In this document: one piece after another, positions 1 to 59,546 of the stretch
Layout: the number at the start of each line of letters is the position of its first letter
Numbering within the stretch: the first letter of the stretch is position 1
Sequence record: NC_047770.1
From: Escherichia phage ESCO13
Direction: 5' to 3' (one strand)
Length of the DNA stretch: 64,000 nucleotides
The notes under the pieces: generated by a model
The model's input: only the letters and a program-made list of their open reading frames with translations
What the model was told of the DNA's origin: nothing
Database searches by the model: none
Translations under genes and position numbers: made by a program

Positions 1-1084
1 ACCGACACAGAACAAAACTGAATAAATCGCGGTATCGAGCTAATCAACCAGCAAACGAATAACCATACCTCCCAGGGTTACAGGCTGTTAGAGAGCCATT
101 TAGAGCGGTTAAAATCGATCAACAACCAACAACAAACCATCAAAAACACCCTTTTACCTCCTTTCTAGTGCAATGATAACCATTATCATCTACCCATGAT
201 TATCTATGCAATATAAGCGCATAATTATAATGTTGATAATAGTTCGCAACAACTAACCAACAAACAACATAAAACAATAAGCAAACTAATCATAATCAAA
301 GGAATAATAGCAAGATGATTGATAACGACAAACAATCAAACCATGATGAATACTAAGCAAGATAACGATAACACGACAAAACAACCAACTAACGAACAAT
401 AACAAACGAAACCATTAAAATAATAACTATTAGCAAAATAGTGCATGAATGAAATCATTACAAAACGAATCATTCACAGAGTCATCATTAGCACGCTATG
501 CCGGACACATAGCGAGCTAATAATAAGCCAACTACACCCCAACAATCATAACCATCGGTGACGGTTATTTCTTGTTACTGCGTAGCTTGCAATAATTGCA
601 AGCGTAATGACGCTTACACTTATTGCGCTGGCTTATTATTAGCATTATATGTAATTACCAAGATCATAACATTAGCGCAATAACAATAATCATTGTAATG
701 GTTACATAAGGAAACAATTAGCATAGCAATAATTATTGGGGGCAATGGGAGGATGATTATCATCATTCCGATACATTGCACACTATGCACATAATAGAAT
801 AAAAGTCAATAATTTTGGGGGCGAAATGTTACCGCCACAGGCGGGAATGTTGAGCACCTTCTCTTAAACGTAAATAAAATCAGAATAATCTTGATTTATT
901 TTAATTTTTATGTTAATAAACGTTTAAATAATAATCATTCTCATATAAATAATAGTCCGTCTGTCATGAGCGGGATCAGTTGACATTGTTCTGTCATATG
1001 ATGAAGTTGCCAAGCCATTGATAAATAAGTGTTTGTGTGATTTATAATCAAGTGGCCCACCTTGTCGCTACGTTGGCATGAGCC
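1..1084. other. ORF-free A/C-rich non-coding region (+ strand T- and G-poor)
   Basis: No ORF >=60 aa in six frames; caacaa/aacaa low-complexity tracts; 8-bp inverted repeat gcttgcaa/ttgcaagc at 585-603. Confidence 0.5.
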
Positions 1085-1465
1085 TTGCATAAGTCATTGA
1101 ATACGAATGATAATTATTCTCATTCGCATGATATTTGGGAATTGTCGCTGCGTGGACCTGACGGCCCGAAAATTCGCGTTAAGCACTTCTTACGTATGCG
1201 CCATGATTTTTGCCATATCATATTGATTCTATTAGATATTCTTGCCATTATTGCCATGAAACAGGGTGTCCCGAAATAATCTCTCCCCGTAGATATTTTG
1301 GGTTACTTTTTATACAAGAGCGGGGTGTCAAAAATAATCGGTATATATGGGATAATTGATAGGAATCCCCTATGATAAATCGATTGTAATTCCTTAAGAT
1401 TGATTGTATGATGTTGGTGATTGATGATTGCCATGAAAGATGGCTAACGATGAGAGGAGATTGTC

Positions 1466-1810
1466 ATGCAAGAGAGTAAAAATGTTCCGTTGAGTAGTTT
1501 ACGTCTAATGAAGTTTTACAAAGCTTGGTTTGCTGGTGAGGTAGAAGGTCACACAACGAGTGGTTTGTGCATATGTTTGATTAAGTATGTAGAGGGAACA
1601 TACCCTGATGAACTGTTACCTCGTCTACAACAAGAGATGAAATCCCAGTTTATTGGTGCAGGACTAGATTACAATTTCCCGTTTAATGAAGGTGGTTATG
1701 AGGAATACACCTTTGAACATAAAAAACATATTTGCCATAAAAACAAACATCGTATACAATGGGTGCTAGATAGAATTCAAGATTATGAAGGAGAGAAAAA
1801 TGACAAATAG
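1466..1810 (+). CDS. hypothetical protein, early paralog family A (copy 1 of 7)
   Basis: SD gagaggag upstream; motifs FYKAW..TSGLCxCL..AGLDYNFPFN..WVLDRI shared with 6 other ORFs. Confidence 0.6.
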   Translation: MQESKNVPLSSLRLMKFYKAWFAGEVEGHTTSGLCICLIKYVEGTYPDELLPRLQQEMKSQFIGAGLDYNFPFNEGGYEEYTFEHKKHICHKNKHRIQWVLDRIQDYEGEKNDK

Positions 1811-2168
1811 TATTCCGTTGAGCAGTGCAACATTGCTTCGCTTCTATAAAGCATGGATTGCCAACTATCCTGCAATGAATCGCACAACGAGTGGCTTATG
1901 TGGTTGTCTGGTAGATTATGTAGATGATTTTGTTGGTGAGACAACTAGAGAAGAAGATAGAAGGTGGCGTGATCATTTGTTAGACCGTTTGAAATATGAA
2001 ATGAGGAAACAATTTACATGTGCAGGGCTGGACTACAATCTTCCGTTCAATGCAGATTGCATGGATTACCTTTCAGAGTGTATAAATTTGGCGTGTCATA
2101 CCAACACGTTACGTCTTCAATGGGTGAAAGATCGCATTGAAGATGCAAATAATGCTTGCATTGAATAA
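1800..2168 (+). CDS. hypothetical protein, paralog family A (copy 2)
   Basis: Start moved to ATG 1800 after SD gaaggagag; motifs FYKAW..GLCGCL..AGLDYNLPFN..WVKDRI. Confidence 0.6.
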   Translation: MTNSIPLSSATLLRFYKAWIANYPAMNRTTSGLCGCLVDYVDDFVGETTREEDRRWRDHLLDRLKYEMRKQFTCAGLDYNLPFNADCMDYLSECINLACHTNTLRLQWVKDRIEDANNACIE

Positions 2169-6337: not shown

Positions 6338-6652
6338 ATGTCAGAGGAACTTAAAGAATTTTATCAGGCATATCATAACTGGCTATTAGCTGGTGCTCCA
6401 GATAATAATCCTTTCTGGCATGATAAAGGATTATGTAGTTGCCTCTACCTTTGGACTGGTGGTTACGATGATCTAAATTATGAAATGCAAATGCAATTCC
6501 GTGAGGCAGGATTGTCTGAAGAATACCCGTTTGATGACGGAGATTGGTTTAAATATGATTTTGCACAAAGAAACGGGCTATTGCATTTGAATGCTGCCCG
6601 TATAAAATGGGTAAAAGATCATGCTACACAGGAGGATGTGCAATGCCAATAG
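6338..6652 (+). CDS. hypothetical protein, paralog family A (copy 3)
   Basis: SD acaggagg; motifs FYQAY..GLCSCL..AGLSEEYPFD..WVKDH. Confidence 0.6.
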   Translation: MSEELKEFYQAYHNWLLAGAPDNNPFWHDKGLCSCLYLWTGGYDDLNYEMQMQFREAGLSEEYPFDDGDWFKYDFAQRNGLLHLNAARIKWVKDHATQEDVQCQ

Positions 6653-6843
6653 TGTTTAGTTTCTTGGTAATTGTTATAGTTGTTCTTTTCGCAGCATGGC
6701 TTTGGGATTTTGACCCAGGAGCAGCGCAGCAAAGAGCTACAGACTGGAAAGAACAATGTATTGTGCTCAAACATGAACGAAATGCGGAGAAATTTCTTGA
6801 CCTGGAGTGTGATCGCCTTGTAAGATACAAGCAAGATAAATAA
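6643..6843 (+). CDS. small membrane protein, family C (KEQCIVxK..KFLD)
   Basis: Start moved to ATG 6643 after SD aggagg; hydrophobic N-terminus; paralog of 12317-12523. Confidence 0.5.
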   Translation: MPIVFSFLVIVIVVLFAAWLWDFDPGAAQQRATDWKEQCIVLKHERNAEKFLDLECDRLVRYKQDK

Positions 6844-6857
6844 CCTTGAGGTGCAAA

Positions 6858-7046
6858 ATGGTAATTGAGATTAAACTTGAATATGCTGGGGCTGTTGCCT
6901 TGATCGCACAAACGTTTGGAGCAAAAATTGAAGAAGTGTATATCAATGCCTGGAGCGTAGAGATTGATGTTCCTATGGATAACATTGCGAATCGCTTGCT
7001 GGTGGCAGAGTGTGAACGCACCAACATAATCTACAAAGGAGCATAA
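6858..7046 (+). CDS. hypothetical protein
   Basis: Start moved to ATG 6858 after SD gaggtg. Confidence 0.4.
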   Translation: MVIEIKLEYAGAVALIAQTFGAKIEEVYINAWSVEIDVPMDNIANRLLVAECERTNIIYKGA

Positions 7047-7047
7047 T

Positions 7048-7269
7048 ATGAAAATTAGAGTTTGTGATGTATTGGGTTATGTTGGTTTTGAGAATGTTCA
7101 GATTCCTTTTGTTGTTGAAGCACATCTTGTTAGCGATGATATGACAACATTCTTTGTTACGATAGAAGAAATGTCCAAAGTTGAGGGATGGGAGTGGTTT
7201 GAAGAAGATGTTTGGGAAGGTTGTGATTACGTATTTTTCTCTGATGAAGTGAATGTTCTTTCGGAGTAG
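7048..7269 (+). CDS. hypothetical protein (family D)
   Basis: SD aaggag; C-terminus WEWFEEDVWEGCDYVFF resembles 2429-2659. Confidence 0.5.
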   Translation: MKIRVCDVLGYVGFENVQIPFVVEAHLVSDDMTTFFVTIEEMSKVEGWEWFEEDVWEGCDYVFFSDEVNVLSE

Positions 7270-7271
7270 GT

Positions 7272-7478
7272 ATGTCTTGTTTTACAAAAGCAGTGTCCAT
7301 ATGTAAGAAACAGTATGAAAGTGATTACGGAATATTTAATATTCCAGCAGATCATACGGAGTATTGTTCATGTGGTGGCAGGATGAAGAAAACAGTGATT
7401 TATGCGGATAGTGGAGACGAACTTGTTCCGGTTATGGTTTGCAAAGCTTGTCATTCTATTAAAACATTAAAAGCGTAA
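7272..7478 (+). CDS. hypothetical Cys-rich protein
   Basis: ORF with SD ggag; CxC..CxxC. Confidence 0.45.
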   Translation: MSCFTKAVSICKKQYESDYGIFNIPADHTEYCSCGGRMKKTVIYADSGDELVPVMVCKACHSIKTLKA

Positions 7479-7573
7479 GGAGTCGGGACACCCGACGATT
7501 GGAGCTAAAAATTTTGCGTACAACCCTTTCCGCCCAACAGGGGCGCGTCGGGTAAATAAAGAGGAGAGTTTAT

Positions 7574-7972
7574 ATGAAAAAGATCATTGTAGGTTTATTG
7601 CTACTCGTTGCATCACTTGGAACAGCAAATGCGTCTCAAGTTTATGAGTGTGTGTCAGATGTGGTTGTTAAAAATCTGAAAGGTGAAGTGATTTCTGGTC
7701 CTAAGAAAATGGCTTCTGTTGTCATTAATAAAGATAACTCCTTTATCCTTAAAAATTCAGGTGGTGCTTTGATGAGTGGCATTCTGCAATACACAGGAGA
7801 AAAAAGTAAAGATGGTAGTGCTATGTACGGTTCACAACAATTTATTGGCACTACTGAAGTAGTAATGATGCGCACAGAGTATCGAGACACTTTGGCTTGG
7901 TTTGCATTTCTAAAAAATGATAAAACAATAACGAATGTTCTTACTCTAGAAGCTGATTGTACGCAACGATAA
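7574..7972 (+). CDS. secreted hypothetical protein (signal peptide)
   Basis: SD agaggag; N-terminus MKKIIVGLLLLVASLGTANA. Confidence 0.55.
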   Translation: MKKIIVGLLLLVASLGTANASQVYECVSDVVVKNLKGEVISGPKKMASVVINKDNSFILKNSGGALMSGILQYTGEKSKDGSAMYGSQQFIGTTEVVMMRTEYRDTLAWFAFLKNDKTITNVLTLEADCTQR

Positions 7973-7981
7973 GGGGGATTT

Positions 7982-8428
7982 ATGACTAAAATGAGACATT
8001 ACGCTGTAAACTGCAACGATGTTTGGCGTTTGTGTCCTGATGATCCGACAGAAGGCACATTTGTAAGATATGAGGATTATAAAGAGTTATCGGATGCTGT
8101 AGTCGCATTGTTAACAGATATCCGTTCACGTTATCCAGGACAAGATTTCACTTGCCCTCACATCAAACTTCTTGCCCTTCTGGTAGAAGGTGAGAAAGAA
8201 GTGGAAGATGGCTTCAAGCGTGTAGAGTATCAAGGTGAAACTTTAGAGGTTCCTGAATTTGTTAATTATATTGCAACAGATTCGAGTGGCGAGCGTTATG
8301 GCTACAGCCATAAGCCAGAGATTCCTGATTGGATTCCCGCTTGGAGATATTCCGTTAGTACCGGAGACTATATCTTCCTTGGTGTAGGTAGTAGTAAGGA
8401 TTGGCGTTTCTCTTTGACAGAGGTTTAA
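7982..8428 (+). CDS. hypothetical protein
   Basis: SD aaggggg upstream. Confidence 0.5.
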   Translation: MTKMRHYAVNCNDVWRLCPDDPTEGTFVRYEDYKELSDAVVALLTDIRSRYPGQDFTCPHIKLLALLVEGEKEVEDGFKRVEYQGETLEVPEFVNYIATDSSGERYGYSHKPEIPDWIPAWRYSVSTGDYIFLGVGSSKDWRFSLTEV

Positions 8429-8432
8429 TAAT

Positions 8433-8696
8433 ATGAAAGAGACATTGCCAGCAGCATACCGTTTGAATGATGAACGTATTTGGGAGTGGACCGACGTTTC
8501 TTGTTTTTACCCTGAAATAGTTCAATATTGGCGAGCAAAAGGGTGTGTTGTAGTTATCAACCCTTGTGGACCAGTGGATGAAGATTGCTTGTATCTCGAT
8601 GGAAAGTGGCACAGTTATTGTCGCTGGCCTTTTGAGTGGATGTGTAAAGAAGATCTCCCAGAGGGTTGGGAGTATCCAAAAGCAAATAGGAGATAA
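8433..8696 (+). CDS. hypothetical Cys/Trp-rich protein
   Basis: ORF with SD gagg. Confidence 0.45.
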   Translation: MKETLPAAYRLNDERIWEWTDVSCFYPEIVQYWRAKGCVVVINPCGPVDEDCLYLDGKWHSYCRWPFEWMCKEDLPEGWEYPKANRR

Positions 8697-8697
8697 T

Positions 8698-9060
8698 ATG
8701 TCTAAAGATTTTGTTGAAGTGTTTGTCAAAGATGAAGAAACTGGTTTAGGCACGGGTTTCATTTGTGAAGAAACTTTTAAACGTGAACAAGAAAAAGCTA
8801 TCCTTATGCGAAACTATGATCATGCATTAGAACAATGGAAAAATGCAGAACAAAAATGCAAAAACCTTTATGCAGAAAATAGAAAACTACAAGATCAAAT
8901 GGAGTTGTTAGCTATCAGTTTACGATCTCTCATTTTGGCTGTAGAAGACGGTTTTAAAAATCCAGATGGTTTTCCTGTGAGCGATATTGAACATGATTTG
9001 TATCTTGCTCGTGGTGCTTACTTTTATGTTAAACAGAAGTCTGTAGAAGGAGAGAAGTGA
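8698..9060 (+). CDS. hypothetical protein
   Basis: Start moved to ATG 8698 after SD aggaga. Confidence 0.45.
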   Translation: MSKDFVEVFVKDEETGLGTGFICEETFKREQEKAILMRNYDHALEQWKNAEQKCKNLYAENRKLQDQMELLAISLRSLILAVEDGFKNPDGFPVSDIEHDLYLARGAYFYVKQKSVEGEK

Positions 9061-9257
9061 TGGAAGAAAAACTGGAACGTATTATCGAGTTAGCCATGTC
9101 TATTGGCTACGACGATTGTTTTCTCCAAACTATTGGAGAAACACAGAACGATTACGACTCTTGGGTGAAAGAGTTGGAAGAACTCAAAACTTCCTTGATT
9201 GCTGACTTTGCTGAAGCCGAGGATAAAGCAGATCGTTACAACTATCTGTGTCGATAA
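9057..9257 (+). CDS. hypothetical protein
   Basis: ATGA start/stop overlap with upstream gene. Confidence 0.45.
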   Translation: MMEEKLERIIELAMSIGYDDCFLQTIGETQNDYDSWVKELEELKTSLIADFAEAEDKADRYNYLCR

Positions 9258-9319
9258 GCCTTGACATTTATTTTATGTATGGTATACATACATTATCAAC
9301 GTGAGCAAGGTGGTGTAAT

Positions 9320-9592
9320 ATGAATAAAGATCGGTTTCTTTCTTTAGTCGCGGAAGCTCCTTTTGATGTTCTTGGGGTGAGATTATGGAAAGACAGAAAC
9401 TATGGGTTAGATGTTCAAACATACTCTCTTTGGTTGGTTGGGGAGCACAGCTTAGATGAAAGCTTGTGCATGGGTAGGGATTCTCGTTCCCTCTGTTTAA
9501 AGTTCAGAAGCTTAGAACGCGCAAACAAAGAGCAAGAAAAACTAACGAGGTGGCTAAATGAAAACAAGCACAAGGTTGATGGAGTTTTATAA
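9320..9592 (+). CDS. hypothetical protein
   Basis: SD aaggtgg upstream. Confidence 0.45.
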   Translation: MNKDRFLSLVAEAPFDVLGVRLWKDRNYGLDVQTYSLWLVGEHSLDESLCMGRDSRSLCLKFRSLERANKEQEKLTRWLNENKHKVDGVL

Positions 9593-9884
9593 AATTTATC
9601 TAGCATGGATTGATGTTGGTGCTCCTGATGGTAAACCTTTTCGGCGGGATTGTGGTTTGTGTGCCAACTTGTTCGATTATGTGCACAGAGGTAATTACAA
9701 CCCCATTATAACAACCTTGTCAGATGAAATGCACGCACAGTTTTACCACAAAGGGTTGAGTCAAGCACTCCCTTTCAATGAGAACTACGATGCATATATC
9801 TTAGAATCAGATGCAGAGGTATGTCACCTGAACGTGGACAGGATTAATTGGGTAAGAGATCGTATTGCAGAGGAGGATGAATAA
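9558..9884 (+). CDS. hypothetical protein, paralog family A (copy 4)
   Basis: SD gaggtgg; motifs FYKIY..GLCANL..KGLSQALPFN..WVRDRI. Confidence 0.6.
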   Translation: MKTSTRLMEFYKIYLAWIDVGAPDGKPFRRDCGLCANLFDYVHRGNYNPIITTLSDEMHAQFYHKGLSQALPFNENYDAYILESDAEVCHLNVDRINWVRDRIAEEDE

Positions 9885-10111
9885 TGTCGGATTATAACTG
9901 GTATGAACTTGAGGCTGTTTGTCAGTTTTATGACTCAATAGTTCTGCGTGATCCAATCTGTCAAGAATTGAGTCGCCGTGCAAGTGCATTGGCAATCCGT
10001 GTTAAAATAAACGGTTGGAACGCAGATTTGGAAAAAGAGTTGGAATTTCTCTTAGAAAACACGCGGGTCTTCCGCAAAGTGTTCCCTGAATGGTTTGAGA
10101 TGGAAGAATGA
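9884..10111 (+). CDS. hypothetical protein
   Basis: SD gaggagg; start overlaps upstream stop. Confidence 0.45.
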   Translation: MSDYNWYELEAVCQFYDSIVLRDPICQELSRRASALAIRVKINGWNADLEKELEFLLENTRVFRKVFPEWFEMEE

Positions 10112-10329
10112 TCATGTGGATTGTGCGTCTTAAATATGATGGCCCTGATCCTTGGGTGAGAACAGTTTGCGGATGTGATACTAAAGAGTCAGCAGATAAA
10201 GCTGGAAGAATGATAAGTGCCTTTTATAATAGTAAACCTCTTTGTTTAGAAATGTCTGGTGTGGTTTGTATGAGCATGTTCGAATACTACTCTTATGAAA
10301 TCAAAGAACACCAAGGGGAATGGAAATAA
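10108..10329 (+). CDS. hypothetical protein
   Basis: ATGA overlap with upstream gene. Confidence 0.4.
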   Translation: MIMWIVRLKYDGPDPWVRTVCGCDTKESADKAGRMISAFYNSKPLCLEMSGVVCMSMFEYYSYEIKEHQGEWK

Positions 10330-10391
10330 ATCGTTGACAGAAGGATTTGTCTTTGTCATAATCATCTCATCGAAACAAAGAGGAGAAAATC

Positions 10392-10946
10392 ATGAAAAAG
10401 TTTATTTGCACCCGTTCCACTAACAGTGATATCCTTGTAGGTAAAGTTATCAAAGGAGAACTCTTCCATGCAAACGGTAAGAAATATATTCTGCTGAAAG
10501 ATTCTTTCAACGGGGAATATCCACGCTGCACTTTCTTCAATTACAATACTCCATTTGCTTTAGAAGGAGATGCTTGGGACTGGGCTGAACTTCATCCTTT
10601 CTGTGAAGATGGACAGACAGAAGAGCAGGAAGAATCTACGGGAAGTTTACGTGATAAACTGCGTAATAAAGCACTGCAAGCAAATTCCCATTTTACTGAA
10701 ATGGTAGACGCCGTTCTATTAGAGATTGAAGATTGTGCGGAACAAGGGAAGTTTGAAAAATACTTTGAACCTTCCAGTTTTGGTTTGTGCAATAACCCTT
10801 CTTCTTATGAACAGATAAGTGAGCAGAAAAGAGGGGCAAATGTTGTAGCTACAATGCTACGTGCAAAAGGTTTGGATGTAACGTTGGCAACCGCAGAGCA
10901 CAGTATTTTTGGGATTATTAAACACATCATCATCAGTTGGAACTAA
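10392..10946 (+). CDS. hypothetical protein
   Basis: SD agaggag; downstream of promoter at 10334. Confidence 0.5.
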   Translation: MKKFICTRSTNSDILVGKVIKGELFHANGKKYILLKDSFNGEYPRCTFFNYNTPFALEGDAWDWAELHPFCEDGQTEEQEESTGSLRDKLRNKALQANSHFTEMVDAVLLEIEDCAEQGKFEKYFEPSSFGLCNNPSSYEQISEQKRGANVVATMLRAKGLDVTLATAEHSIFGIIKHIIISWN

Positions 10947-10959
10947 GAGGAGAGAGCAT

Positions 10960-11274
10960 ATGAAAATAGAAGAGGTAGAAGCAATCCTGCAAGCGGCTGT
11001 TGAGAAAGGTGCAATCGCTAAGTATGACCGTCAGAAAGAAGAGCACGACACTCATTTCGCTCGTGAGTTTTACATCACAGGTGTAGACGGCACAGAAGTG
11101 ATGTTGGAATGGTATGTAAACATGATGACCTTACATATTGGCAGTTTCGAGATGTGGGTGTGGAGCATAGGGATCTCCGATACCCACCCTGGCTTCCGAG
11201 TGAGTTTGGATTTCACCTCTTACGAAGGTGATCGCTGTGCCCGTATTGGTCGTCGCAATTCATTTCAAGGTTAA
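10960..11274 (+). CDS. hypothetical protein
   Basis: Start moved to ATG 10960 after SD agaggagag. Confidence 0.45.
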   Translation: MKIEEVEAILQAAVEKGAIAKYDRQKEEHDTHFAREFYITGVDGTEVMLEWYVNMMTLHIGSFEMWVWSIGISDTHPGFRVSLDFTSYEGDRCARIGRRNSFQG

Positions 11275-11285
11275 CTGGAGGGTTT

Positions 11286-11624
11286 ATGAAAAAGGCACTA
11301 CTGATCGCGCTGTTCCTGGTGACTCCTCCTGTTATGGCAGACACTGTACCTAAAGTTAATGGCTTTGGGGATTCAAAAGTTGTAACCAAGGATCGCTTTG
11401 TCCAAACTGGTATGACTGGGGCTTTGGATTATATCATTACAGACACAAAGACAGGGTGCCAGTTTGCTATCGTCTATAATGGCGGGGTCATTCCTTTGGG
11501 TTGCTTCTCGGAGACTGGGGCTTTGGATTATATCATTACAGACACAAAGACAGGGTGCCAGTTTGCTATCGTCTATAATGGCGGGGTCATTCCTTTGGGT
11601 TGCTTCTCGGAGTTCAAAAAATGA
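11286..11624 (+). CDS. secreted protein with perfect 33-aa tandem repeat
   Basis: Signal peptide MKKALLIALFLVTPPVMA; unit TGALDYIITDTKTGCQFAIVYNGGVIPLGCFSE occurs twice. Confidence 0.5.
   Translation: MKKALLIALFLVTPPVMADTVPKVNGFGDSKVVTKDRFVQTGMTGALDYIITDTKTGCQFAIVYNGGVIPLGCFSETGALDYIITDTKTGCQFAIVYNGGVIPLGCFSEFKK
11415..11612 (+). repeat. perfect 99-bp direct tandem duplication (2 copies) inside CDS
   Basis: Identical run actggggctttggattatatcattacagacacaaagacagggtgccag... repeated back to back. Confidence 0.7.
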
Positions 11625-12028
11625 AAAATATCCGTGTGAAGTTTCTTGCCTCTAAGTTTATTAATGTTCGAGACTATTTGACCATAGGTCGGATCTACAA
11701 CGCCAAAGTAGCAGATGAGAACTGTTTCATTGTTGTGGATGATGAAGGATCTGAACTCTATTGTCTGTTTGAAAATTGCAGCTATGGGGTGTGGCAAGTT
11801 ATGTCGGAAGAAGACGAAAAGAAAGAGAGCGAAATGTATATCCCAGAAGGATACGTCTTGGTCCCGAAAGAGCCTACCCCAGAAATGTTGGAGGCAGCGA
11901 AGGACTGGACGGGGCTAACCCGAACAGCAGAAGTTGTCTATAAGTCGATGATCGCGGCTTCGCCGCTTATTGGAAAAGGGGTAGGGAAAGAAAATGAGAT
12001 CAAGCGAAGCTTTACTGGAGTTTTATGA
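11621..12028 (+). CDS. hypothetical protein
   Basis: Start moved to ATG 11621 (ATGA overlap, SD ggag). Confidence 0.45.
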   Translation: MKNIRVKFLASKFINVRDYLTIGRIYNAKVADENCFIVVDDEGSELYCLFENCSYGVWQVMSEEDEKKESEMYIPEGYVLVPKEPTPEMLEAAKDWTGLTRTAEVVYKSMIAASPLIGKGVGKENEIKRSFTGVL

Positions 12029-12320
12029 GTGGTGGTTGGATCAGGCTATGGGTCAAGATCCAAACGAAAACATCAAAGCTTGTGGTTTGTGTCATGCAGT
12101 GGAAGTGTATTGCGGGGAAGACCAAGATTTGTATCTTTCCCTTTTTGATGAAATGACAGAACAGTTTGAAGCGGAAGGTTTGGAATGGAACTATCCTTTC
12201 TATGGTGAGTGGGATCTGTCAGGTTGGATTCCTTGTTATTGGATTGAGAAGAAGTCCGGCACCCAACATAAAAACTTCCACCGTCTTTCTTGGGTCTATG
12301 ACCGTCTGGAGGAGGCATGA
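11994..12320 (+). CDS. hypothetical protein, paralog family A (copy 5)
   Basis: Motifs FYEWW..GLCHAV..EGLEWNYPFY..WVYDRL. Confidence 0.55.
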   Translation: MRSSEALLEFYEWWLDQAMGQDPNENIKACGLCHAVEVYCGEDQDLYLSLFDEMTEQFEAEGLEWNYPFYGEWDLSGWIPCYWIEKKSGTQHKNFHRLSWVYDRLEEA

Positions 12321-12523
12321 GTTTTCACGCTTTCTTTAATCTTTTGTTATTATTGATCTTTTTGGGATTCCTGATTCTCCTTGCCAGTGTTGCATCAGAT
12401 ATGCAAAAAGAACAGATAGATCTTAAGGAACAATGTATCGTTTTTAAACAAGAAAAAGATGCCAATAAATTTCTTGACAACAATTGCTTCAACTTTGTAA
12501 AATGGAACCCTGATAAAGATTGA
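12317..12523 (+). CDS. small membrane protein, family C
   Basis: Hydrophobic N-terminus; KEQCIVFKQEKDANKFLD matches 6643-6843. Confidence 0.5.
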   Translation: MSFHAFFNLLLLLIFLGFLILLASVASDMQKEQIDLKEQCIVFKQEKDANKFLDNNCFNFVKWNPDKD

Positions 12524-12533
12524 GGAATAAATC

Positions 12534-13205
12534 ATGAAAAAGTTTGTTGTTTACAGTCGTCTTTCTAAACAGAAAAAAGGTGAGGCACAATATGGTATGG
12601 AGAGCCAAGAGAATGATATCCGTTACTTCTTAGACTCTGTGCCTGATGCTGAAGTTATTGGTCAATTTTCTGAATACTATTCGGGTAAGGGCGATTGGAA
12701 GCAACGTAAGGAACTGGTCAAAGCGGTTGAAATGTGTAAAGCTACCGGAGCAACTTTATTGGTAGCTAAAGTTGACCGCTTGGGTCGTAACAACGCCTCC
12801 GTAGCAACTCTTCTAGAAATGATCGATGTTAAGATAGCCATCATGCCAGATGCAGATAAAATGGTTATACAGCTTCTGTCTGTTCTGGCTGAACAAGAAG
12901 TCAGAGGTATTGCTGATCGTATTAAAAAGGGTCTTGCTGTAGCAAAAAGCAAAGGTGTTTTATTAGGCAGTGCTAATCCTAAAACTGCCGCTGCACGTAG
13001 AAAAGGAAAAATGGAATACAATTCTGTTAAAGCAGACGCTTTTGCAGAGACATTCCGTGAACGCTTGGAGATCCTTAGAGATTTAAATACACCTTACAAA
13101 ACTATTGCTGAAAAATTCAATAGTAAGAAAATCGCAACAGCACGTGGTGGTAAGTGGGATGCTAAAACTGTTTCTCGCTTGTGTGCTAGATTGAACATTA
13201 AATAG
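12534..13205 (+). CDS. serine recombinase (resolvase/invertase family)
   Basis: N-terminal YSRLS with catalytic Ser; VDRLGRN; QLLSVLAEQEVRGIADRIKKG; C-terminal HTH; SD gaggaataaatc. Confidence 0.7.
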   Translation: MKKFVVYSRLSKQKKGEAQYGMESQENDIRYFLDSVPDAEVIGQFSEYYSGKGDWKQRKELVKAVEMCKATGATLLVAKVDRLGRNNASVATLLEMIDVKIAIMPDADKMVIQLLSVLAEQEVRGIADRIKKGLAVAKSKGVLLGSANPKTAAARRKGKMEYNSVKADAFAETFRERLEILRDLNTPYKTIAEKFNSKKIATARGGKWDAKTVSRLCARLNIK

Positions 13206-13213
13206 GAGAGGAT

Positions 13214-13624
13214 ATGAAACAAGAAAATGAATCTGTAGATCACTTAATCATGCTGTCAGCCCTTTTTGCCGGATGGGAGGTATTTTTTGAAAATTTGTTC
13301 AATTCTGCTACAGATGGTTCTGATTTTATGCGCCAATTTAAACGACGAACTGTTGAGGACTATACTTTCTATTCAGGTCGGATTGAAAAAGGTTACGAAG
13401 ATACAAATACAACACTCACCATTAAAGTTTTAGATGTGATGTTTAGTGTTATAGATGCTATCGATGAAAGTCTTCCGATTTTAGAAGATTGCAATACGAA
13501 AGCTTATGTTTACAAAATAGCCCGTGCTTATGTGTCTGCAAACAGTTGTCTTCTTTCCACCCAAATTGCGGTGAACAATCTTGCCAACTTGTTCGATGAA
13601 GGAGAAACTTTTTATGACAATTGA
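13214..13624 (+). CDS. hypothetical protein
   Basis: SD ggagagg upstream. Confidence 0.45.
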   Translation: MKQENESVDHLIMLSALFAGWEVFFENLFNSATDGSDFMRQFKRRTVEDYTFYSGRIEKGYEDTNTTLTIKVLDVMFSVIDAIDESLPILEDCNTKAYVYKIARAYVSANSCLLSTQIAVNNLANLFDEGETFYDN

Positions 13625-13979
13625 TTTGAAGTGTAAGAGGATTCTTTTAGATTTCTATAATAATTGGTTAGAACACCTCCGTCTCTTTCCACGAGAAAGT
13701 GGTTACGCTGATGTTGGCTTATGCCGAGGTCTACGTATGTATATAAGTGATGAATTTCGAGCCGATCATTCTTTAGCATATTCTGTTTATGGTATGCAAT
13801 TAGCCAGTTTTGAAAATGCTGGTTTAGATACAACTTTCCCGTTTAACACAGCAAAATCTTTTGAGCAAGAGTGTAAGGAAAAACGTTGCATGTTTAATGA
13901 AAAACGTGTACAGTGGGTTAAGGATCGAGTTAAACAACTGGAACAAGAGTTGGATTTCTTCTATGATGAGGCAGAATAA
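13614..13979 (+). CDS. hypothetical protein, paralog family A (copy 6)
   Basis: Start moved to ATG 13614 after SD ggagaaa; motifs FYNNW..GLCRGL..AGLDTTFPFN..WVKDRV. Confidence 0.55.
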   Translation: MTIDLKCKRILLDFYNNWLEHLRLFPRESGYADVGLCRGLRMYISDEFRADHSLAYSVYGMQLASFENAGLDTTFPFNTAKSFEQECKEKRCMFNEKRVQWVKDRVKQLEQELDFFYDEAE

Positions 13980-14918: not shown

Positions 14919-15257
14919 ATGTATTACACTGAAGACTACATACTGTATAACTTTTTTAAAGGCTGGTTGAAATGGGCTGAACAAGCTCCTGTCGGAGATT
15001 GTGTTTTTCCTTGGGATTCTCGTCAAGGTTTGTGTCGTTGTTTGGAAGATTGGCTTATAACCACAAACTACAACTCAGAAACTAAGAAATCTACATCACA
15101 GAGACTAAAAATGTTATTTGAAGAAGATGGTTTAGATCCGATTTATCCTTTCGGTGAGGAAAGTTTCCACAATGGTCTTTTCCTTGGCACTCAACATTAT
15201 GATAAAGATCGTGTAGATTGGGTAAAAGAAAAGGTAGCACAGTATGAATGGGGTTAA
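14919..15257 (+). CDS. hypothetical protein, paralog family A (copy 7)
   Basis: Start moved to ATG 14919 after SD aaaggaggag (track start would span the terminator); motifs FFKGW..GLCRCL..DGLDPIYPFG..WVKEKV. Confidence 0.55.
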   Translation: MYYTEDYILYNFFKGWLKWAEQAPVGDCVFPWDSRQGLCRCLEDWLITTNYNSETKKSTSQRLKMLFEEDGLDPIYPFGEESFHNGLFLGTQHYDKDRVDWVKEKVAQYEWG

Positions 15258-19327: not shown

Positions 19328-19372
19328 CACAGAAACAATACTATAGGATAGTGATCCTATCGTAGCAATAGA

Positions 19373-19394
19373 ACCCGCTTCGGCGGGTTTTTTC
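19373..19394 (+). terminator. intrinsic terminator (UUCG tetraloop)
   Basis: acccgc-ttcg-gcgggt then T6. Confidence 0.65.
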
Positions 19395-19649: not shown

Positions 19650-19692
19650 GCTAGAACCCACCTAAATCGAACAGAGACGCTCTAAAATAGAA

Positions 19693-19720
19693 AAGGCACC
19701 CACTTGGGTGCCTTTGTTTT
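19693..19720. terminator. bidirectional terminator at the +/- convergence point
   Basis: ggcaccc-actt-gggtgcc flanked by A-run upstream and T-run downstream. Confidence 0.6.
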
Positions 19721-24100: not shown

Positions 24101-24127
24101 GTCAATAAAAAACCCGCCGAAGCGGGT
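24101..24127 (-). terminator. minus-strand intrinsic terminator
   Basis: acccgc-uucg-gcgggu on minus RNA, then U6. Confidence 0.5.
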
Positions 24128-24136
24128 TATTATTTA

Positions 24137-57536: not shown

Positions 57537-57608
57537 GGCCCTGTAGCTCAATGGGAGAGCTGTCGGCTCATAACCGATAGGTAGCTGGATCGAAACCAGC
57601 CAGGGCCA
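57537..57608 (+). tRNA. tRNA-Met or Ile2 (anticodon CAT)
   Basis: Hand-folded cloverleaf; acceptor ggccctg/cagggcc; loop cuCAUaa; CCA encoded; resembles E. coli tRNA-Ile2 (from memory). Confidence 0.7.
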
Positions 57609-57613
57609 CCAAA

Positions 57614-57685
57614 GTCTTTATGGTGTAATGGATAGCACAGGAGTCTTCTAAACTCTTAGTCAAGGTTCGATTCCTTGTAAAGACA
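57614..57685 (+). tRNA. tRNA-Arg (anticodon TCT)
   Basis: Acceptor gtcttta/taaagac; loop cuUCUaa; T-arm caagg-ttcgatt-ccttg; CCA encoded. Confidence 0.7.
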
Positions 57686-57884
57686 CCAGAACATTTTAAC
57701 ATGAATTAGCTCAAGTGATTTGAACCCACTACTGATCATGGTGGCAGAGAATGAGGCAAGTATGTCAGACATTATAAACAAAGGCCACGGTTATATTAGA
57801 AGACATAAATGCTCGAAGAGCACCGTTCGTGGAGAACGGGGGTTGGTGGAGTCACCATTCATGGTAAAATGTTTTAAAAAACTA

Positions 57885-57914
57885 TTGACAACAAACATTA
57901 TTTTATGTTAGATT
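57885..57914 (+). promoter_or_regulatory. sigma70-like promoter inside the tRNA cluster
   Basis: TTGACA-18-TAGATT. Confidence 0.4.
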
Positions 57915-57922
57915 ATAAGTAT

Positions 57923-58010
57923 GGAAGGGCAAATCGATGTGGCGACGAAAACGGTCTTGAAAACCGCCGAGCTTGAAAGAGCCTTGGGAGTTCGACTCTC
58001 CCTCCTTCCG
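57923..58010 (+). tRNA. tRNA-Ser (anticodon TGA)
   Basis: Long variable arm; loop cuUGAaa; T-arm gggag-ttcgact-ctccc; CCA encoded. Confidence 0.6.
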
Positions 58011-58018
58011 CCAGATTA

Positions 58019-58101
58019 GGTAGATTGGTGAAATGGTAGCCACGACAGTTTGCTAAACTGTAGTCGGAAACGGCGTGTAGGTTCGAGTCCTACATCTACC
58101 G
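58019..58101 (+). tRNA. tRNA-Ser (anticodon GCT)
   Basis: Acceptor ggtagat/atctacc; loop uuGCUaa; long variable arm; CCA encoded. Confidence 0.6.
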
Positions 58102-58234
58102 CCAAGTTCTTTTTAATGTAGCTTACTTTAGCAGAGTAAATCTTCGGCAAGTGGCGGTAACCACTTTACCGATACCTCATAGTTAGTGGTGTGAACACTG
58201 GCTATTTTAAAAAGAATTTAAATATTAGTATTTA

Positions 58235-58319
58235 GGTGAGTTAATTCCGTAGGGGTAGCGGGGCAGACTGTAAATCTGTTATCATTGCGATTCGGGTGGT
58301 TCGACTCCATCACTCACCA
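58235..58319 (+). tRNA. tRNA-Tyr (anticodon GTA)
   Basis: Acceptor ggtgagt/actcacc; loop cuGUAaa; long variable arm; CCA encoded. Confidence 0.65.
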
Positions 58320-58328
58320 CCAAATTAA

Positions 58329-58411
58329 GATGAGTTGGCTGAATGGTTTAAGCGGCGGACTGTTAATCCGTGTTCGAAAGAACAATATAGGTTCGAATCC
58401 TATACTCATCG
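58329..58411 (+). tRNA. tRNA-Asn (anticodon GTT) with unusually long variable arm
   Basis: Anticodon arm gcgga-cuGUUaa-tccgt matches E. coli tRNA-Asn (from memory); extra gttc-gaaa-gaac hairpin in variable region; CCA encoded. Confidence 0.55.
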
Positions 58412-58505
58412 CCAGAATTATGGACTTGTAGAGTTAAGGTAAACCCCCCAGTCGCCAATAGGCTTCTGGAATTGCAGGTATCGAATCCTGCCGAGTCCCA
58501 GCATT

Positions 58506-58577
58506 GCTCCTATAGTATAATGGCTATTACAACGGTTTTGTAATCCGTGGATCTCTGTTCGATTCAGTGTGGGAGCA
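58506..58577 (+). tRNA. tRNA-Thr (anticodon TGT)
   Basis: Acceptor gctccta/tgggagc; loop uuUGUaa; one mismatch each in anticodon and T stems; CCA encoded. Confidence 0.5.
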
Positions 58578-58854
58578 CCAACACAACATTAAGAGCACTG
58601 TGATTGATCGTCGTATCCTGTGCACAAGGTCTGCTCGAAAGACAGTGTTCTTAGTATTGTGTTGATCACAAAAAGAGTCACCCGAAACTTGACCGGAGTA
58701 GGGTTGGATGGGGCAAAATGAGAAGCGGCTCTCCCATCGACAGCAACGAAGAATAATATTTGACTTTGGTTTTGTATTATTTTAAGTTAGCTTACCGAAC
58801 GTAGGGCTAGTCACCCAACGGGATACTCGTCACTGTCCCAATCAATAAAAGTCT

Positions 58855-58883
58855 TGACAACAAATAGTAAAATGTAGTATAGT
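58855..58883 (+). promoter_or_regulatory. sigma70-like promoter upstream of tRNA-Gly
   Basis: TTGACA-17-TATAGT. Confidence 0.5.
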
Positions 58884-58894
58884 AAATATATATG

Positions 58895-58965
58895 GCGTTC
58901 TTGGTGTAGCGGTAGCATTCCGTCCTTCCAAGTCGGCGGCACGAGTTCGATCCTCGTAGAACGCT
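58895..58965 (+). tRNA. tRNA-Gly (anticodon TCC)
   Basis: Acceptor gcgttct/agaacgc; loop cuUCCaa; T-arm acgag-ttcgatc-ctcgt; CCA encoded. Confidence 0.65.
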
Positions 58966-59066
58966 CCAAATTATTTAATAAAGGGTTGCCAGAAAACTTT
59001 CTCTTTTACTCATGGTTTTCTCCTTCTCTCACACTTCTTCTGGTTGCCCTTCATTAAATGATTTAT

Positions 59067-59139
59067 TGGTTTGTAGTGTAGTCCGGTAGCACACGACACT
59101 TTGACTGTCGTAGGTTTGGTTCAAATCCAGACAGACCAG
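59067..59139 (+). tRNA. tRNA-Gln (anticodon TTG)
   Basis: U1-A72 and discriminator G as in E. coli tRNA-Gln (from memory); loop cuUUGac; CCA encoded. Confidence 0.65.
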
Positions 59140-59235
59140 CCATATAACAAAGGTGAGTCACTACCTTAAGTGTGAAGTTAAAAACGAGGAGCCGCCGAAC
59201 ACTTTCTTTTGCGGTGTACCTTTAGAATGTTATCA

Positions 59236-59309
59236 CGGGACGTAGCACAGCTTGGTAGTGCGCTCGCTTTGGGAGCGAGAGGTCGAGTGTTCGAATCACT
59301 CCGTCCCGA
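59236..59309 (+). tRNA. tRNA-Pro (anticodon TGG)
   Basis: C1-G72 start as in bacterial tRNA-Pro; loop uuUGGga; T-arm gagtg-ttcgaat-cactc; CCA encoded. Confidence 0.7.
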
Positions 59310-59318
59310 CCAATTAAA

Positions 59319-59389
59319 TGTTTCGTAGTTCAATGGTAGAACCCACGACTGATAATCGTGAGACACAAGTTCGATTCTTGTCGAAACAA
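59319..59389 (+). tRNA. tRNA-Ile (anticodon GAT)
   Basis: Anticodon arm cacga-cuGAUaa-tcgtg; T-arm acaag-ttcgatt-cttgt; CCA encoded. Confidence 0.65.
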
Positions 59390-59470
59390 CCAGTTTCCCG
59401 TTAGACTTACAGGATAAGAGTTCCACAGCTTATTGTGATGCTGGTTCGAATCCAGCACGGGATACATAAT

Positions 59471-59546
59471 AGCGGGATAGAGGAGTCTGGTCGTCCTCGC
59501 CAGTTTCATATGCTGGAGATCATCGGTTCAAATCCGATTCCCGCCT
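59471..59546 (+). tRNA. tRNA-Met (anticodon CAT), A1-C72 mismatch
   Basis: D-stem gagg/cctc; anticodon arm ccagt-uuCAUau-gctgg; T-arm atcgg-ttcaaat-ccgat; CCA encoded. Confidence 0.6.

What the first reader, a model, noticed from the sequence alone, without database searches (positions are those of the whole stretch)
6338..13205. Duplicated two-gene module (family A + family C) with an adjacent serine recombinase
A family A gene followed by a small membrane protein with KEQCIVxKxE..A.KFLD occurs twice (6338-6843 and 11994-12523). The second copy is followed directly by a resolvase/invertase-type serine recombinase (YSRLS, VDRLGRN, C-terminal HTH). A small serine recombinase is unexpected in a virulent-phage early region and could drive inversion or resolution; no target site was identified.
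Basis: partly seen in the sequence, partly recalled or inferred. Interest (0 to 1): 0.6.

Follow-up and report, generated by a model that had tools for sequence, protein, structure and literature searches.

The report
Phage serine recombinase beside shuffled genes
A small, apparently active site-specific DNA recombinase that is a fixed core gene of a group of virulent E. coli phages sits here, by an accident of gene shuffling, next to a second copy of a conserved pair of tiny early genes; the two are not one system, and the enzyme's DNA target is still unknown.

Summary
The window is a Phapecoctavirus (phAPEC8-like, roughly 145-160 kb E. coli myovirus).

- **Family A and family C.** Family A (PHROG 2510) has seven copies in the window. 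Family C (PHROG 15662) has two, each overlapping the end of an A gene. The two pairs share only 32% (A) and 36-50% (C) identity, so this is not a recent duplication.
- **First pair.** It is a conserved unit. It is also found in Justusliebigvirus, about 16 kb from that genus's recombinase.
- **Second pair.** It lies in a 1.6-kb cassette that most Phapecoctavirus genomes lack. The cassette was acquired from a phiWec179-like lineage, and its junctions sit at a ribosome-binding site and the recombinase start codon. In phiWec179 the two genes are separated by a gene X (DUF7202), which is missing here.
- **Recombinase (12534-13205).** It is 100% identical in about 60 phage genomes and about 57% identical in phi92. 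All catalytic residues are invariant. It always has its own sigma-70-like promoter, which here lies inside the 3' end of C2.
- **Relatives outside phages.** Its closest non-phage relatives sit on plasmids, many of them small; in two of three inspected they lie near replication and partition genes.
- **Invertible segment.** None was found.

Best reading: a resolvase-type enzyme acting on one unidentified site. Its adjacency to A+C is incidental.

The parts
6338..6652 (+). Family A gene of pair 1 (104 aa, PHROG 2510; small all-alpha protein)
   Evidence: ORF; phrog_2510 E=8e-29; family HMM E=1e-43; conserved in Ro121c4YLVW and nepoznato.
6643..6843 (+). Family C gene of pair 1 (66 aa). It has an N-terminal hydrophobic helix and the C-terminal motif KEQCIVxKxxxxAxKFL[DE]xxC. 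It overlaps the end of the A gene by 10 nt.
   Evidence: (phrog_15662 E=1.9e-42). The same A-C overlap is seen in Justusliebigvirus alia and EmilieFrey.
6797..6826 (+). Weak sigma-70-like promoter match (TTGACC-18-TAAGAT, 9/12) inside the 3' end of C1
   Evidence: aligned with the C2 promoter.
10950..12556 (+). Mosaic cassette that most Phapecoctavirus genomes lack. It is about 91% identical to phiWec179/181/186/188/190 and PsgM04F. The left junction is in the ribosome-binding site of gene 10960-11274. The right junction is in the 23 nt ATGAAAAAGTTTGTTGTTTACAG shared by all recombinase alleles.
11994..12320 (+). Family A gene of pair 2 (108 aa)
   Evidence: (E=1.4e-20). 89% identical to cluster P0100. 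AlphaFold2 model has mean pLDDT 86 and is all-alpha, with no significant solved-structure match.
12317..12523 (+). Family C gene of pair 2 (68 aa). Its start overlaps the stop of the A gene (ATGA). In phiWec179 a gene X (DUF7202) lies between the two.
12474..12503 (+). Sigma-70-like promoter (TTGACA-18-TAAAAT, 11/12) inside the 3' end of C2, 31 nt upstream of the recombinase start codon. It aligns with the intergenic promoter-like site of standard Phapecoctavirus.
   Evidence: Equivalent sites lie upstream of the homologues in phi92, ICP1 and two metagenomic lineages.
12534..13205 (+). Small serine recombinase, 223 aa. Residues 1-147 form the catalytic domain plus helix E (Ser11 nucleophile). 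Residues 148-223 form a helical DNA-binding domain that resembles the start of the Pfam 'Recombinase' domain.
1466..2168 (+). Two further family A paralogues in tandem (1466-1810 and ~1785/1800-2168)
   Evidence: E=6.9e-24 and 1.2e-18.
9558..9884 (+). Family A paralogue, the closest relative of A6338 (40% identity)
13614..13979 (+). Family A paralogue, two genes downstream of the recombinase
14919..15257 (+). Family A paralogue

Best explanation
Three separate things lie side by side here.

**1. The A-then-C pair.** This is a conserved, probably translationally coupled pair of early genes in Stephanstirmvirinae. A is a soluble all-alpha protein. C is a single-pass membrane protein with a two-cysteine tail. 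Their function is unknown. Family A has expanded to seven paralogues in this window.

**2. The second pair.** It arrived on a 1.6-kb cassette by ordinary homologous recombination with a phiWec179-like phage. The crossovers lie at a ribosome-binding site and within the first 23 nt of the recombinase gene. Its A/C juxtaposition differs from the donor-like arrangement A-X-C by the absence of gene X. The break lies between two GGAGGA(G/C)G ribosome-binding-site repeats.

**3. The recombinase.**
- It is the subfamily-wide core small serine recombinase.
- Host RNA polymerase probably transcribes it from its own early promoter. In this phage that promoter lies inside the 3' end of C2.
- Ser11 is the expected nucleophile, and the C-terminal helical domain is the expected DNA-reading part.
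- It most likely works as a resolvase-type enzyme on a single, still unidentified site in the phage genome. That would mean cyclising or resolving replicating circular or multimeric genomes, as Cre/lox does for P1. I do not think it is an invertase switch.

**Shown:** the identity, conservation and intact active site of the recombinase; the mosaic history of the cassette; the lack of a link between A+C and the recombinase.

**Inferred:** promoter function, translational coupling, and the resolvase role. My confidence is about 0.85 for points 1, 2 and the identity part of 3, and about 0.35 for the resolvase role.
For: **Recombinase identity and conservation**
- PF00239 scores 66 bits.
- The catalytic residues are invariant.
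- The AlphaFold2 model has mean pLDDT 88. Its best fold matches are Sin, gamma-delta resolvase and the Bxb1/TP901-1/PhiC31 catalytic domains.
- It is 100% identical in about 60 genomes, and phi92 is about 57% identical.
- Against nepoznato there are 8 synonymous and 0 non-synonymous changes.

**Own promoter in every lineage, despite unrelated upstream genes**
- This window: 11/12 match.
- Ro121c4YLVW: 10/12.
- phi92: 9/12.
- ICP1: 10/12.
- Two metagenomic lineages have TTGACA-17-TAAGCT and TTGACA-17-TATTGT.

**Resolvase-type reading**
- 109 plasmid records carry full-length homologues at 33-40% identity. 92 of them are typed non-mobilizable, and several are only 5.8-10 kb.
- In pLM20P5 the gene lies between repA and parA. 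In pMaD11 it lies near RepA and a ParA-like gene.
- A resolvase needs only one site per genome. That fits the absence of repeated sites.

**Mosaic history**
-.

**Independence of A-C from the recombinase**
-.
Against: - No target site was found. The only good dyad upstream of the standard allele (AATAAATACCTTGACAAGTGTTTATT) is unique in Ro121c4YLVW and absent from this window. It therefore cannot be an essential site.
- There is no evidence that these phages need multimer resolution or pass through a circular stage. No Phapecoctavirus DNA occurs as a plasmid or in complete E. coli assemblies.
- The plasmid homologues are themselves uncharacterised, so calling them 'resolvases' is an inference from gene context.
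- Promoter calls are consensus matches only.
- In ICP1 the homologue was matched here only in a few isolates (three 2017 records are listed), so it is probably not universal in that phage and may not be essential there.
Confidence: 0.6

Rival explanations
1. The recombinase is a Gin/Hin-type DNA invertase. It would flip a phage segment, such as a tail-fibre or promoter segment, to switch host range or gene expression. This is what several GenBank annotations imply ('DNA invertase', 'gin').
For: - The best PHROG match, phrog_125, is named 'DNA invertase'.
- It is a small serine recombinase with an intact active site.
- Database records carry those names.
Against: - The complete Ro121c4YLVW genome has no inverted repeat of 20 nt or more apart from terminator hairpins.
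- Inverted pairs within about 8 kb of the gene are only 73-94% matches of 16-34 nt, all inside coding sequence. This is chance grade.
- The window is colinear with Ro121c4YLVW.
- The 24.5-kb tail and baseplate module is one colinear match covering at least 80% of the query in 64 genomes. The listed records with two matches are ones where the match reaches an end of the record.
- Similarity to Gin is weak (4m6f, E=6e-3).
- The Mpi invertase model scores 22.6 bits against a cut-off of 272.
- The C-terminal domain gives no HTH_7 match. It weakly matches PF07508 instead.
Confidence: 0.07
2. The recombinase itself drives cassette exchange in the early region. On this view the mosaic junction at its start codon is a site-specific crossover, and A+C arrived as a recombinase-mobilised cassette, as in an integron or at a res site.
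For: - The right boundary of the 1.6-kb cassette coincides with the 5' end of the recombinase gene.
- The region upstream of the recombinase differs between lineages.
- The phiWec-type allele keeps 95% identity in the catalytic domain but only about 30% in the DNA-binding domain. This shows recombination within or next to the gene.
Against: - The right junction lies in a 23-nt stretch identical in both parental types.
- The left junction lies in a ribosome-binding-site region.
- The gene X difference lies between two ribosome-binding-site-like repeats.
- All three are typical of homology or microhomology-driven exchange at gene boundaries.
- The two ends share no dyad or repeated site.
- The phiWec-like upstream sequence is here paired with the standard DNA-binding domain. 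This argues against a matched site and enzyme pair at that spot.
Confidence: 0.05
3. A, C and the recombinase form one functional operon. For example, A and C would be accessory or regulatory factors of the recombinase.
For: - The three genes are contiguous and co-directional here, with 4-nt and 10-nt spacings.
- phiWec179 has A-X-C-recombinase-A.
Against: - In about 60 genomes with the identical recombinase, the gene directly upstream is the unrelated gene X (DUF7202), and no family-C gene lies there.
- In alia and EmilieFrey the A-C pair is about 16 kb from the recombinase.
- Two further lineages have other genes upstream.
- The recombinase has its own promoter.
Confidence: 0.04
4. The recombinase acts on DNA other than the phage genome, such as the host chromosome, a resident prophage or a phage satellite. 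It would then be a host-takeover or counter-defence tool. Alternatively it has been recruited as a DNA-binding regulator.
For: - Promoter matches suggest early expression in every lineage.
- No phage-borne site was found.
- The DNA-binding domain is swapped between closely related phages, as expected for arms-race specificity.
- Relatives of this phage group are reported to carry nucleases aimed at putative E. coli satellites (PMC10055350, read).
Against: - There is no direct evidence.
- The invariant catalytic residues argue against a purely regulatory role.
- There is no match to known defence-system models.
- Plasmid-borne homologues suggest action on the element that encodes them.
Confidence: 0.2

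Closest known systems
phi92 gene 053 'DNA invertase' and the identical Phapecoctavirus genes annotated 'serine recombinase (gin)', 'DNA invertase' or 'resolvase'
   Same: These are orthologues. The protein is 100% identical in about 60 Phapecoctavirus records and about 57% identical in phi92. Length and domain order are the same.
   Different: - None has been characterised, and the names are automatic or by similarity.
- Many records call it 'hypothetical' or, wrongly, 'methionine ABC transporter ATP-binding protein'.
- One paper on ESCO5 and ESCO37 states that no recombinase genes were predicted in them (PMC10269720). ESCO5 nevertheless carries the identical gene.
- This window differs from all listed records in what lies upstream of the gene.
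Uncharacterised small serine recombinases on plasmids, some next to rep/par genes (for example pLM20P5 of Paracoccus yeei and pMaD11 of Marinovum algicola)
   Same: They align over the full length at 33-40% identity, including the C-terminal domain. Each is a single recombinase gene on its replicon.
   Different: - They sit on plasmids, not on a virulent phage.
- In the three plasmids inspected, about 155-680 bp of non-coding DNA lies next to the gene. In the phages the upstream space is 70 bp or less.
- Their role as multimer resolvases is inferred from gene context, not tested.
Tn3 / gamma-delta resolvase and Sin (solved structures)
   Same: Same catalytic fold and active-site residues: Y, R, S...R...D, R..R.
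   Different: - Sequence similarity is only remote (E about 1e-6, catalytic domain only).
- There is no transposase neighbour.
- No three-subsite res region was seen.
- The C-terminal domain is longer and weakly resembles the start of the Pfam 'Recombinase' domain.
Mu Gin / Salmonella Hin DNA invertases
   Same: Small serine recombinases. Mu Gin is phage-encoded (own knowledge).
   Different: No flanking inverted sites, no invertible segment, weak similarity.
P1 Cre/lox (analogy for the proposed role)
   Same: A phage-encoded site-specific recombinase acting on one site per genome to cyclise or resolve the phage DNA (own knowledge).
   Different: Cre is a tyrosine recombinase and P1 is temperate with a plasmid prophage. 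No circular or plasmid state of Phapecoctavirus was found.

Membership tests
Serine recombinase superfamily (Pfam PF00239 Resolvase) | Catalytic-domain profile match above the curated cut-off | tested here: met
   66 bits against a cut-off of 23.3, residues 5-142.
Serine recombinase superfamily (Pfam PF00239 Resolvase) | Nucleophilic serine with its conserved Arg/Asp partners (gamma-delta Y6, R8, S10, R45, D67, R68, R71) | tested here: met
   Y7, R9, S11, R58, D81, R82 and R85 are invariant in 43 homologues. Mapping to gamma-delta numbering is by motif position and my own knowledge.
Serine recombinase superfamily (Pfam PF00239 Resolvase) | Long helix E followed by a helical DNA-binding domain | tested here: met
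   The AlphaFold2 model has helix 109-139 followed by five short helices to residue 219. Fold matches are to Sin, gamma-delta resolvase and Bxb1.
Hin/Gin/Cin/Pin DNA invertases | Close sequence relationship to the invertase clade, with an HTH_7-type C-terminal domain | tested here: not met
   Gin (4m6f) E=6e-3. The Mpi invertase model scores 22.6 bits against a cut-off of 272. Pfam reports no HTH_7 match, only a weak PF07508 match.
Hin/Gin/Cin/Pin DNA invertases | Two inverted crossover sites flanking an invertible segment next to the gene | tested here: not met
   None in the window or in the complete Ro121c4YLVW genome at 20 nt or more. Only chance-grade pairs lie near the gene. Sites sharing fewer than about 14 nt cannot be excluded.
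Hin/Gin/Cin/Pin DNA invertases | Both orientations of a segment seen among related genomes | tested here: not met
   The window is colinear with Ro121c4YLVW. The tail module is colinear in 64 genomes. The rest of the genome was not compared across all relatives.
Hin/Gin/Cin/Pin DNA invertases | Fis-dependent recombinational enhancer | not tested
   No scan was made, and there is no reliable sequence model in these tools.
Tn3-family resolvases | Gene next to a transposase, with a res region of three dimer-binding subsites upstream | tested here: not met
   There is no transposase in the neighbourhood. The upstream space is 0-70 bp and holds a promoter-like site. It has a single dyad in the standard type only, and that dyad is absent here.
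Large serine integrases | 400-700 aa with a full recombinase domain, zinc-ribbon domain and coiled coil | tested here: not met
   The protein is 223 aa. Only residues 187-216 weakly match the first part of PF07508 (E=0.003, below the cut-off).
Plasmid-borne small serine recombinases (presumed multimer resolvases) | Full-length homology, including the C-terminal domain | tested here: met
   109 plasmid records at 33-40% identity over 94-100% of the query.
Plasmid-borne small serine recombinases (presumed multimer resolvases) | Acts on one site per replicon to resolve multimers | not testable with these tools
   This needs recombination assays. Only the rep/par gene context was seen, in two of three plasmids inspected.
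PHROG 2510 (family A) and PHROG 15662 (family C) | Profile match | tested here: met
   A: E from 1.4e-20 to 6.6e-32 for the five copies scanned. C: E 1.9e-42 and 4.8e-13. Both families have no assigned function.

The most novel reading that the evidence does not exclude
The early-expressed, catalytically intact serine recombinase kept by a whole subfamily of strictly virulent phages does not act on the phage genome. Instead it is aimed at foreign DNA, such as the host chromosome, resident prophages or phage satellites, as a takeover or counter-defence weapon. The swap of its DNA-binding domain between close relatives would then reflect an arms race over target specificity. A less radical version is that it is a Cre-like cyclase or resolvase that a virulent phage needs in order to replicate.
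Probability: 0.12. Interest if true: 0.75.

Novelty: new member of a known kind. Interest (0 to 1): 0.3.

Why it matters
It would matter modestly.

- **The open question.** Serine recombinases in phages are known mainly as integrases and as tail-fibre invertases of temperate phages. Here one is conserved, apparently active and probably early-expressed in a whole subfamily of virulent phages that are used in phage-therapy collections. It has no known job. At least one paper on these phages states that no recombinase genes were predicted in two of them (ESCO5, ESCO37), although ESCO5 carries the identical gene.
- **Safety assessment.** For therapy phages it matters that this gene is not an integrase and that no episomal or integrated copies were found in the databases searched.
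- **Annotation.** The result warns against reading function from gene adjacency in these mosaic early regions. It also corrects recurrent mis-annotations ('ABC transporter ATP-binding protein').
- **The A/C pair.** It remains a conserved pair of unknown function.

Tried and rejected
- **Repeated sites.**
  - Window-wide and local repeat searches found nothing convincing.
  - A self-comparison of the complete 151,671-bp Ro121c4YLVW genome gave only terminator hairpins. It also showed a direct array of hairpin-plus-promoter cassettes at 124-134.5 kb, outside the window.
- **Dyad near the gene.** A 26-bp dyad overlaps the -35 element of the standard allele's promoter. It is unique in that genome and absent from this window and from phiWec179, phi92 and ICP1. 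I rejected it as an essential site.
- **Fur-box-like palindromes as targets.** The palindromes in the non-coding region 1-1450 are conserved in phiWec179 even though its recombinase has a different DNA-binding domain. I rejected them as targets.
- **Episomal or carrier state.** There is no match in complete E. coli genomes or PLSDB plasmids.
- **Defence-system models (PADLOC).** No match for A, C, the recombinase or their neighbours.
- **Pfam and NCBIfam for A and C.** Nothing above the cut-offs.
- **Literature.** Searches on Phapecoctavirus, phi92, ICP1 and virulent-phage serine recombinases found nothing on function.
- **Rfam.** Only the tRNA cluster was found.

Full report
**What the window is.** An 8-kb query around the finding matches 69 phage records, nearly all Escherichia phages of the genus Phapecoctavirus (phAPEC8-like, subfamily Stephanstirmvirinae, roughly 145-160 kb). 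Identity is 95-99% for 61 of them, but coverage is only 74-81%. The window is colinear with phage vB_EcoM-Ro121c4YLVW over its whole length. Position 1 falls inside a 1.5-kb non-coding gap of that genome. From about 1.4 to 19.7 kb the predicted genes (long ORFs and the annotation of relatives) are small, closely packed and on the + strand. This is typical of an early region, but I have no expression data.

**Checking the observation.**
- Family A is PHROG 2510 and family C is PHROG 15662. Neither has a known function.
- An HMM built from the A copies finds seven A genes in the window: 1466-1810, ~1785-2168, 6338-6652, 9558-9884, 11994-12320, 13614-13979 and 14919-15257. Only two C genes are found.
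- A6338 and A11994 are 32% identical (E=2.6e-8). A6338 is closer to A9558 (40%). C1 and C2 are 36-50% identical.
- The similarities are therefore real, but the two pairs are old paralogues and not a recent duplication of a module.
- In both pairs the C gene starts inside the end of the A gene, by 10 nt in pair 1 and by the ATGA overlap in pair 2. This suggests translational coupling (sequence).

**Is A-then-C a real unit?** Yes, for pair 1.
- The same overlapping A-C pair occurs in a different genus, Justusliebigvirus: phage alia gp134/gp135 and phage EmilieFrey. The family HMMs confirm both.
- There the pair is about 16 kb away from that genus's recombinase (for alia's recombinase position, for the pair).
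- C is a 66-79-aa protein with an N-terminal hydrophobic helix. Its conserved tail is KEQCIVxKxxxxAxKFL[DE]xxC.
- A is predicted with good confidence (mean pLDDT 86, pTM 0.81) to be a small all-alpha protein.
- A has no Pfam, NCBIfam or PADLOC match.
- In the 5.8-billion-sequence protein search, family A gave only 19 clusters; the longest contigs that carry them are typically about 140-155 kb.
- I cannot assign a function to the pair.

**History of the second pair.**
- Window 10974-12533 has no counterpart in Ro121c4YLVW or nepoznato. Those phages carry three other genes there, followed by a 70-bp spacer.
- The segment is found at about 91% identity only in phiWec179/181/186/188/190 and PsgM04F.
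- At the left end the window switches from Ro121c4-like to phiWec-like sequence in the ribosome-binding-site region of gene 10960-11274.
- At the right end it switches back within ATGAAAAAGTTTGTTGTTTACAG, the first 23 nt of the recombinase gene. These 23 nt are identical in both types.
- In phiWec179 the gene order is A, X, C, recombinase, A.
- X is 48% identical to the 70-aa gene that lies directly upstream of the recombinase in standard Phapecoctavirus. Records mis-annotate that gene as 'ABC transporter ATP-binding protein'. A close homologue in a metagenomic relative carries Pfam DUF7202.
- The window lacks X. The break lies between two GGAGGA(G/C)G ribosome-binding-site repeats.
- The A/C overlap of pair 2 is therefore best explained by a 248-bp deletion, or conversely by an insertion in phiWec179.
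- The spacer upstream of the standard recombinase aligns with the last 70 nt or so of C2. It looks like a remnant of a C gene that kept its promoter.
- All of these junctions are of the homology or microhomology kind. None shows a recombinase-type crossover site.

**The promoter inside C.**
- The second-best sigma-70 match in the first 20 kb is TTGACA-18-TAAAAT at 12474-12503. It lies inside C2, 31 nt upstream of the recombinase start codon.
- The -35 element is the codons for F-L-D of the 'KFLD' motif. C1 carries a weaker version, TTGACC-18-TAAGAT.
- Promoter-like sites lie at the same place upstream of the recombinase in every lineage examined:
  - Ro121c4YLVW, 10/12
  - phi92, 9/12
  - ICP1, 10/12
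  - two metagenomic lineages, TTGACA-17-TAAGCT and TTGACA-17-TATTGT
- The upstream genes in these lineages are unrelated.
- These are consensus matches, not proof. Their recurrence suggests that the recombinase is an independently transcribed early gene.

**The recombinase.**
- It matches PF00239 at 66 bits.
- In an alignment of 43 homologues down to about 30% identity, Y7, R9, S11, R58, D81, R82 and R85 are invariant. By my knowledge of gamma-delta resolvase these correspond to Y6, R8, S10, R45, D67, R68 and R71.
- The AlphaFold2 model (mean pLDDT 88) has the expected catalytic fold, a long helix E and a five-helix C-terminal domain. Its best solved matches are Sin, gamma-delta resolvase and the catalytic domains of Bxb1, TP901-1 and PhiC31.
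- Only the catalytic domain is detectably similar in sequence to solved recombinases (E about 1e-6). No NCBIfam equivalog is reached.
- The protein is 100% identical in about 60 Phapecoctavirus records, about 57% in phi92 and other Justusliebigvirus, about 55% in Klebsiella relatives, and 30-39% in Vibrio phages including some ICP1 isolates.
- Against nepoznato the gene has 8 synonymous and no non-synonymous differences.
- It is therefore a conserved, selected and almost certainly active enzyme, and not a peculiarity of this genome.
- In the phiWec-type allele, residues 1-147 are 95% identical to the standard allele. Residues 148-223, the DNA-binding domain, are only about 30% identical. This is a sharp domain-boundary mosaic and implies a different target specificity.

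**What it acts on.** I could not find a site.
- The window has no convincing inverted repeats.
- The complete Ro121c4YLVW genome has none of 20 nt or more except terminator hairpins.
- The tail and baseplate module is one colinear match covering at least 80% of the query in 64 genomes.
- The invertase label is therefore unsupported.
- The single good dyad upstream of the standard allele is missing from this window.
- Fur-box-like palindromes in the non-coding region 1-1450 are conserved in phiWec179 despite its different DNA-binding domain. They are unlikely to be the target.

**Evidence from plasmids.**
- The most informative lead is that 109 plasmid records carry full-length homologues at 33-40% identity. 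Many are tiny non-mobilizable plasmids.
- In pLM20P5 the gene sits between repA and parA. In pMaD11 it sits near RepA and a ParA-like gene.
- This is the usual place for a plasmid multimer-resolution gene (own knowledge).
- Such an enzyme needs only one site per replicon. That would explain why no repeated site is seen.
- I therefore favour a resolvase or cyclase role on the phage genome, with confidence of about 0.35.
- Action on non-phage DNA is the main rival, at about 0.2.
- No Phapecoctavirus DNA occurs in complete E. coli genomes or in plasmid records, so there is no sign of an episomal or integrated state.

**Comparison with what is known.**
- Orthologues are already annotated in GenBank as 'DNA invertase' (phi92 gene 053), 'serine recombinase (gin)' and 'resolvase'. 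Others are labelled 'hypothetical' or 'methionine ABC transporter ATP-binding protein'.
- A paper on ESCO5 and ESCO37 states that no recombinase genes were predicted in them (PMC10269720). ESCO5 nevertheless carries the identical gene.
- I found no paper on its function.
- It belongs to the serine recombinase superfamily. It fails the tests for the Hin/Gin invertases, the Tn3-type resolvases and the large serine integrases. Its nearest relatives are uncharacterised plasmid genes.

**Verdict.**
- The proposed link between the A+C pair and the recombinase is not supported.
- The recombinase is real, active-looking and already in the databases, but its role is unknown.
- Interest is low to moderate.
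- The open question worth an experiment is why a whole subfamily of virulent phages keeps an apparently early-expressed serine recombinase.

Noticed in passing
window 11414-11611 (inside ORF 11286-11624): An exact 99-nt tandem duplication (two copies, 100% identical) adds 33 aa in frame to a small signal-peptide-bearing protein. The phiWec179 orthologue (240-nt gene) has a single copy. This is either a very recent duplication or an assembly artefact.
   Followed up: partly
window 1-1450; also Ro121c4YLVW 135,081-135,163 (L009): A 1.45-kb non-coding AT-rich region carries Fur-box-like palindromes at 169-187, 749-767, 924-942 and 1103-1127. A 19-nt version of the motif gives 3 matches in the window against 0.23 expected by chance. 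Three of these positions (169, 924, 1103) are conserved in phiWec179, which has a site only 2 mismatches from the E. coli Fur consensus. This may indicate iron/Fur control of a phage regulatory or origin region.
   Followed up: partly
window 12975-13202; L003 6173-6406: The recombinase of the phiWec179 group is 95% identical in the catalytic domain but only about 30% identical in the C-terminal DNA-binding domain. This is a domain-boundary mosaic and implies a change of target specificity between closely related phages.
   Followed up: partly
L009 24,000-34,500 (Ro121c4YLVW 124-134.5 kb), just upstream of the window start: An array of small genes is separated by a direct repeat of about 40 nt. 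The repeat contains a hairpin (GCGGCACCATTGCCGC) within a promoter-like context. It resembles the promoter-stem-loop cassettes described in T4-type phages (from memory). None of these repeats lies inside the window.
   Followed up: no
L001 6949-7161; L002 7413-7625; L003 5264-5518; L017 2536-2784: Gene X (70-84 aa) is annotated 'putative ABC transporter ATP-binding protein' in several records. It is a small phage protein, and a close homologue in L017 carries Pfam DUF7202. In other records the recombinase itself is labelled 'methionine ABC transporter ATP-binding protein'. These are annotation errors that propagate between records.
   Followed up: partly
window 57537-59546: A cluster of 11 tRNA genes on the + strand. 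It corresponds to the tRNA block annotated in Ro121c4YLVW.
   Followed up: no
window 19372-19393 and 24107-24128; 19692-19715: Two perfect 22-nt GC-rich hairpin terminators lie in inverted orientation 4.7 kb apart, and a bidirectional terminator lies at the strand-switch point near 19.7 kb. They look like ordinary transcription terminators, not crossover sites.
   Followed up: partly
L005 4001-4756 (ICP1 isolate 2017_DRC_82): Some Vibrio cholerae phage ICP1 isolates carry a 251-aa homologue of this recombinase (about 30% identity). It lies in a block of genes without the classical gp numbers, so it is probably an accessory gene in ICP1.
   Followed up: no
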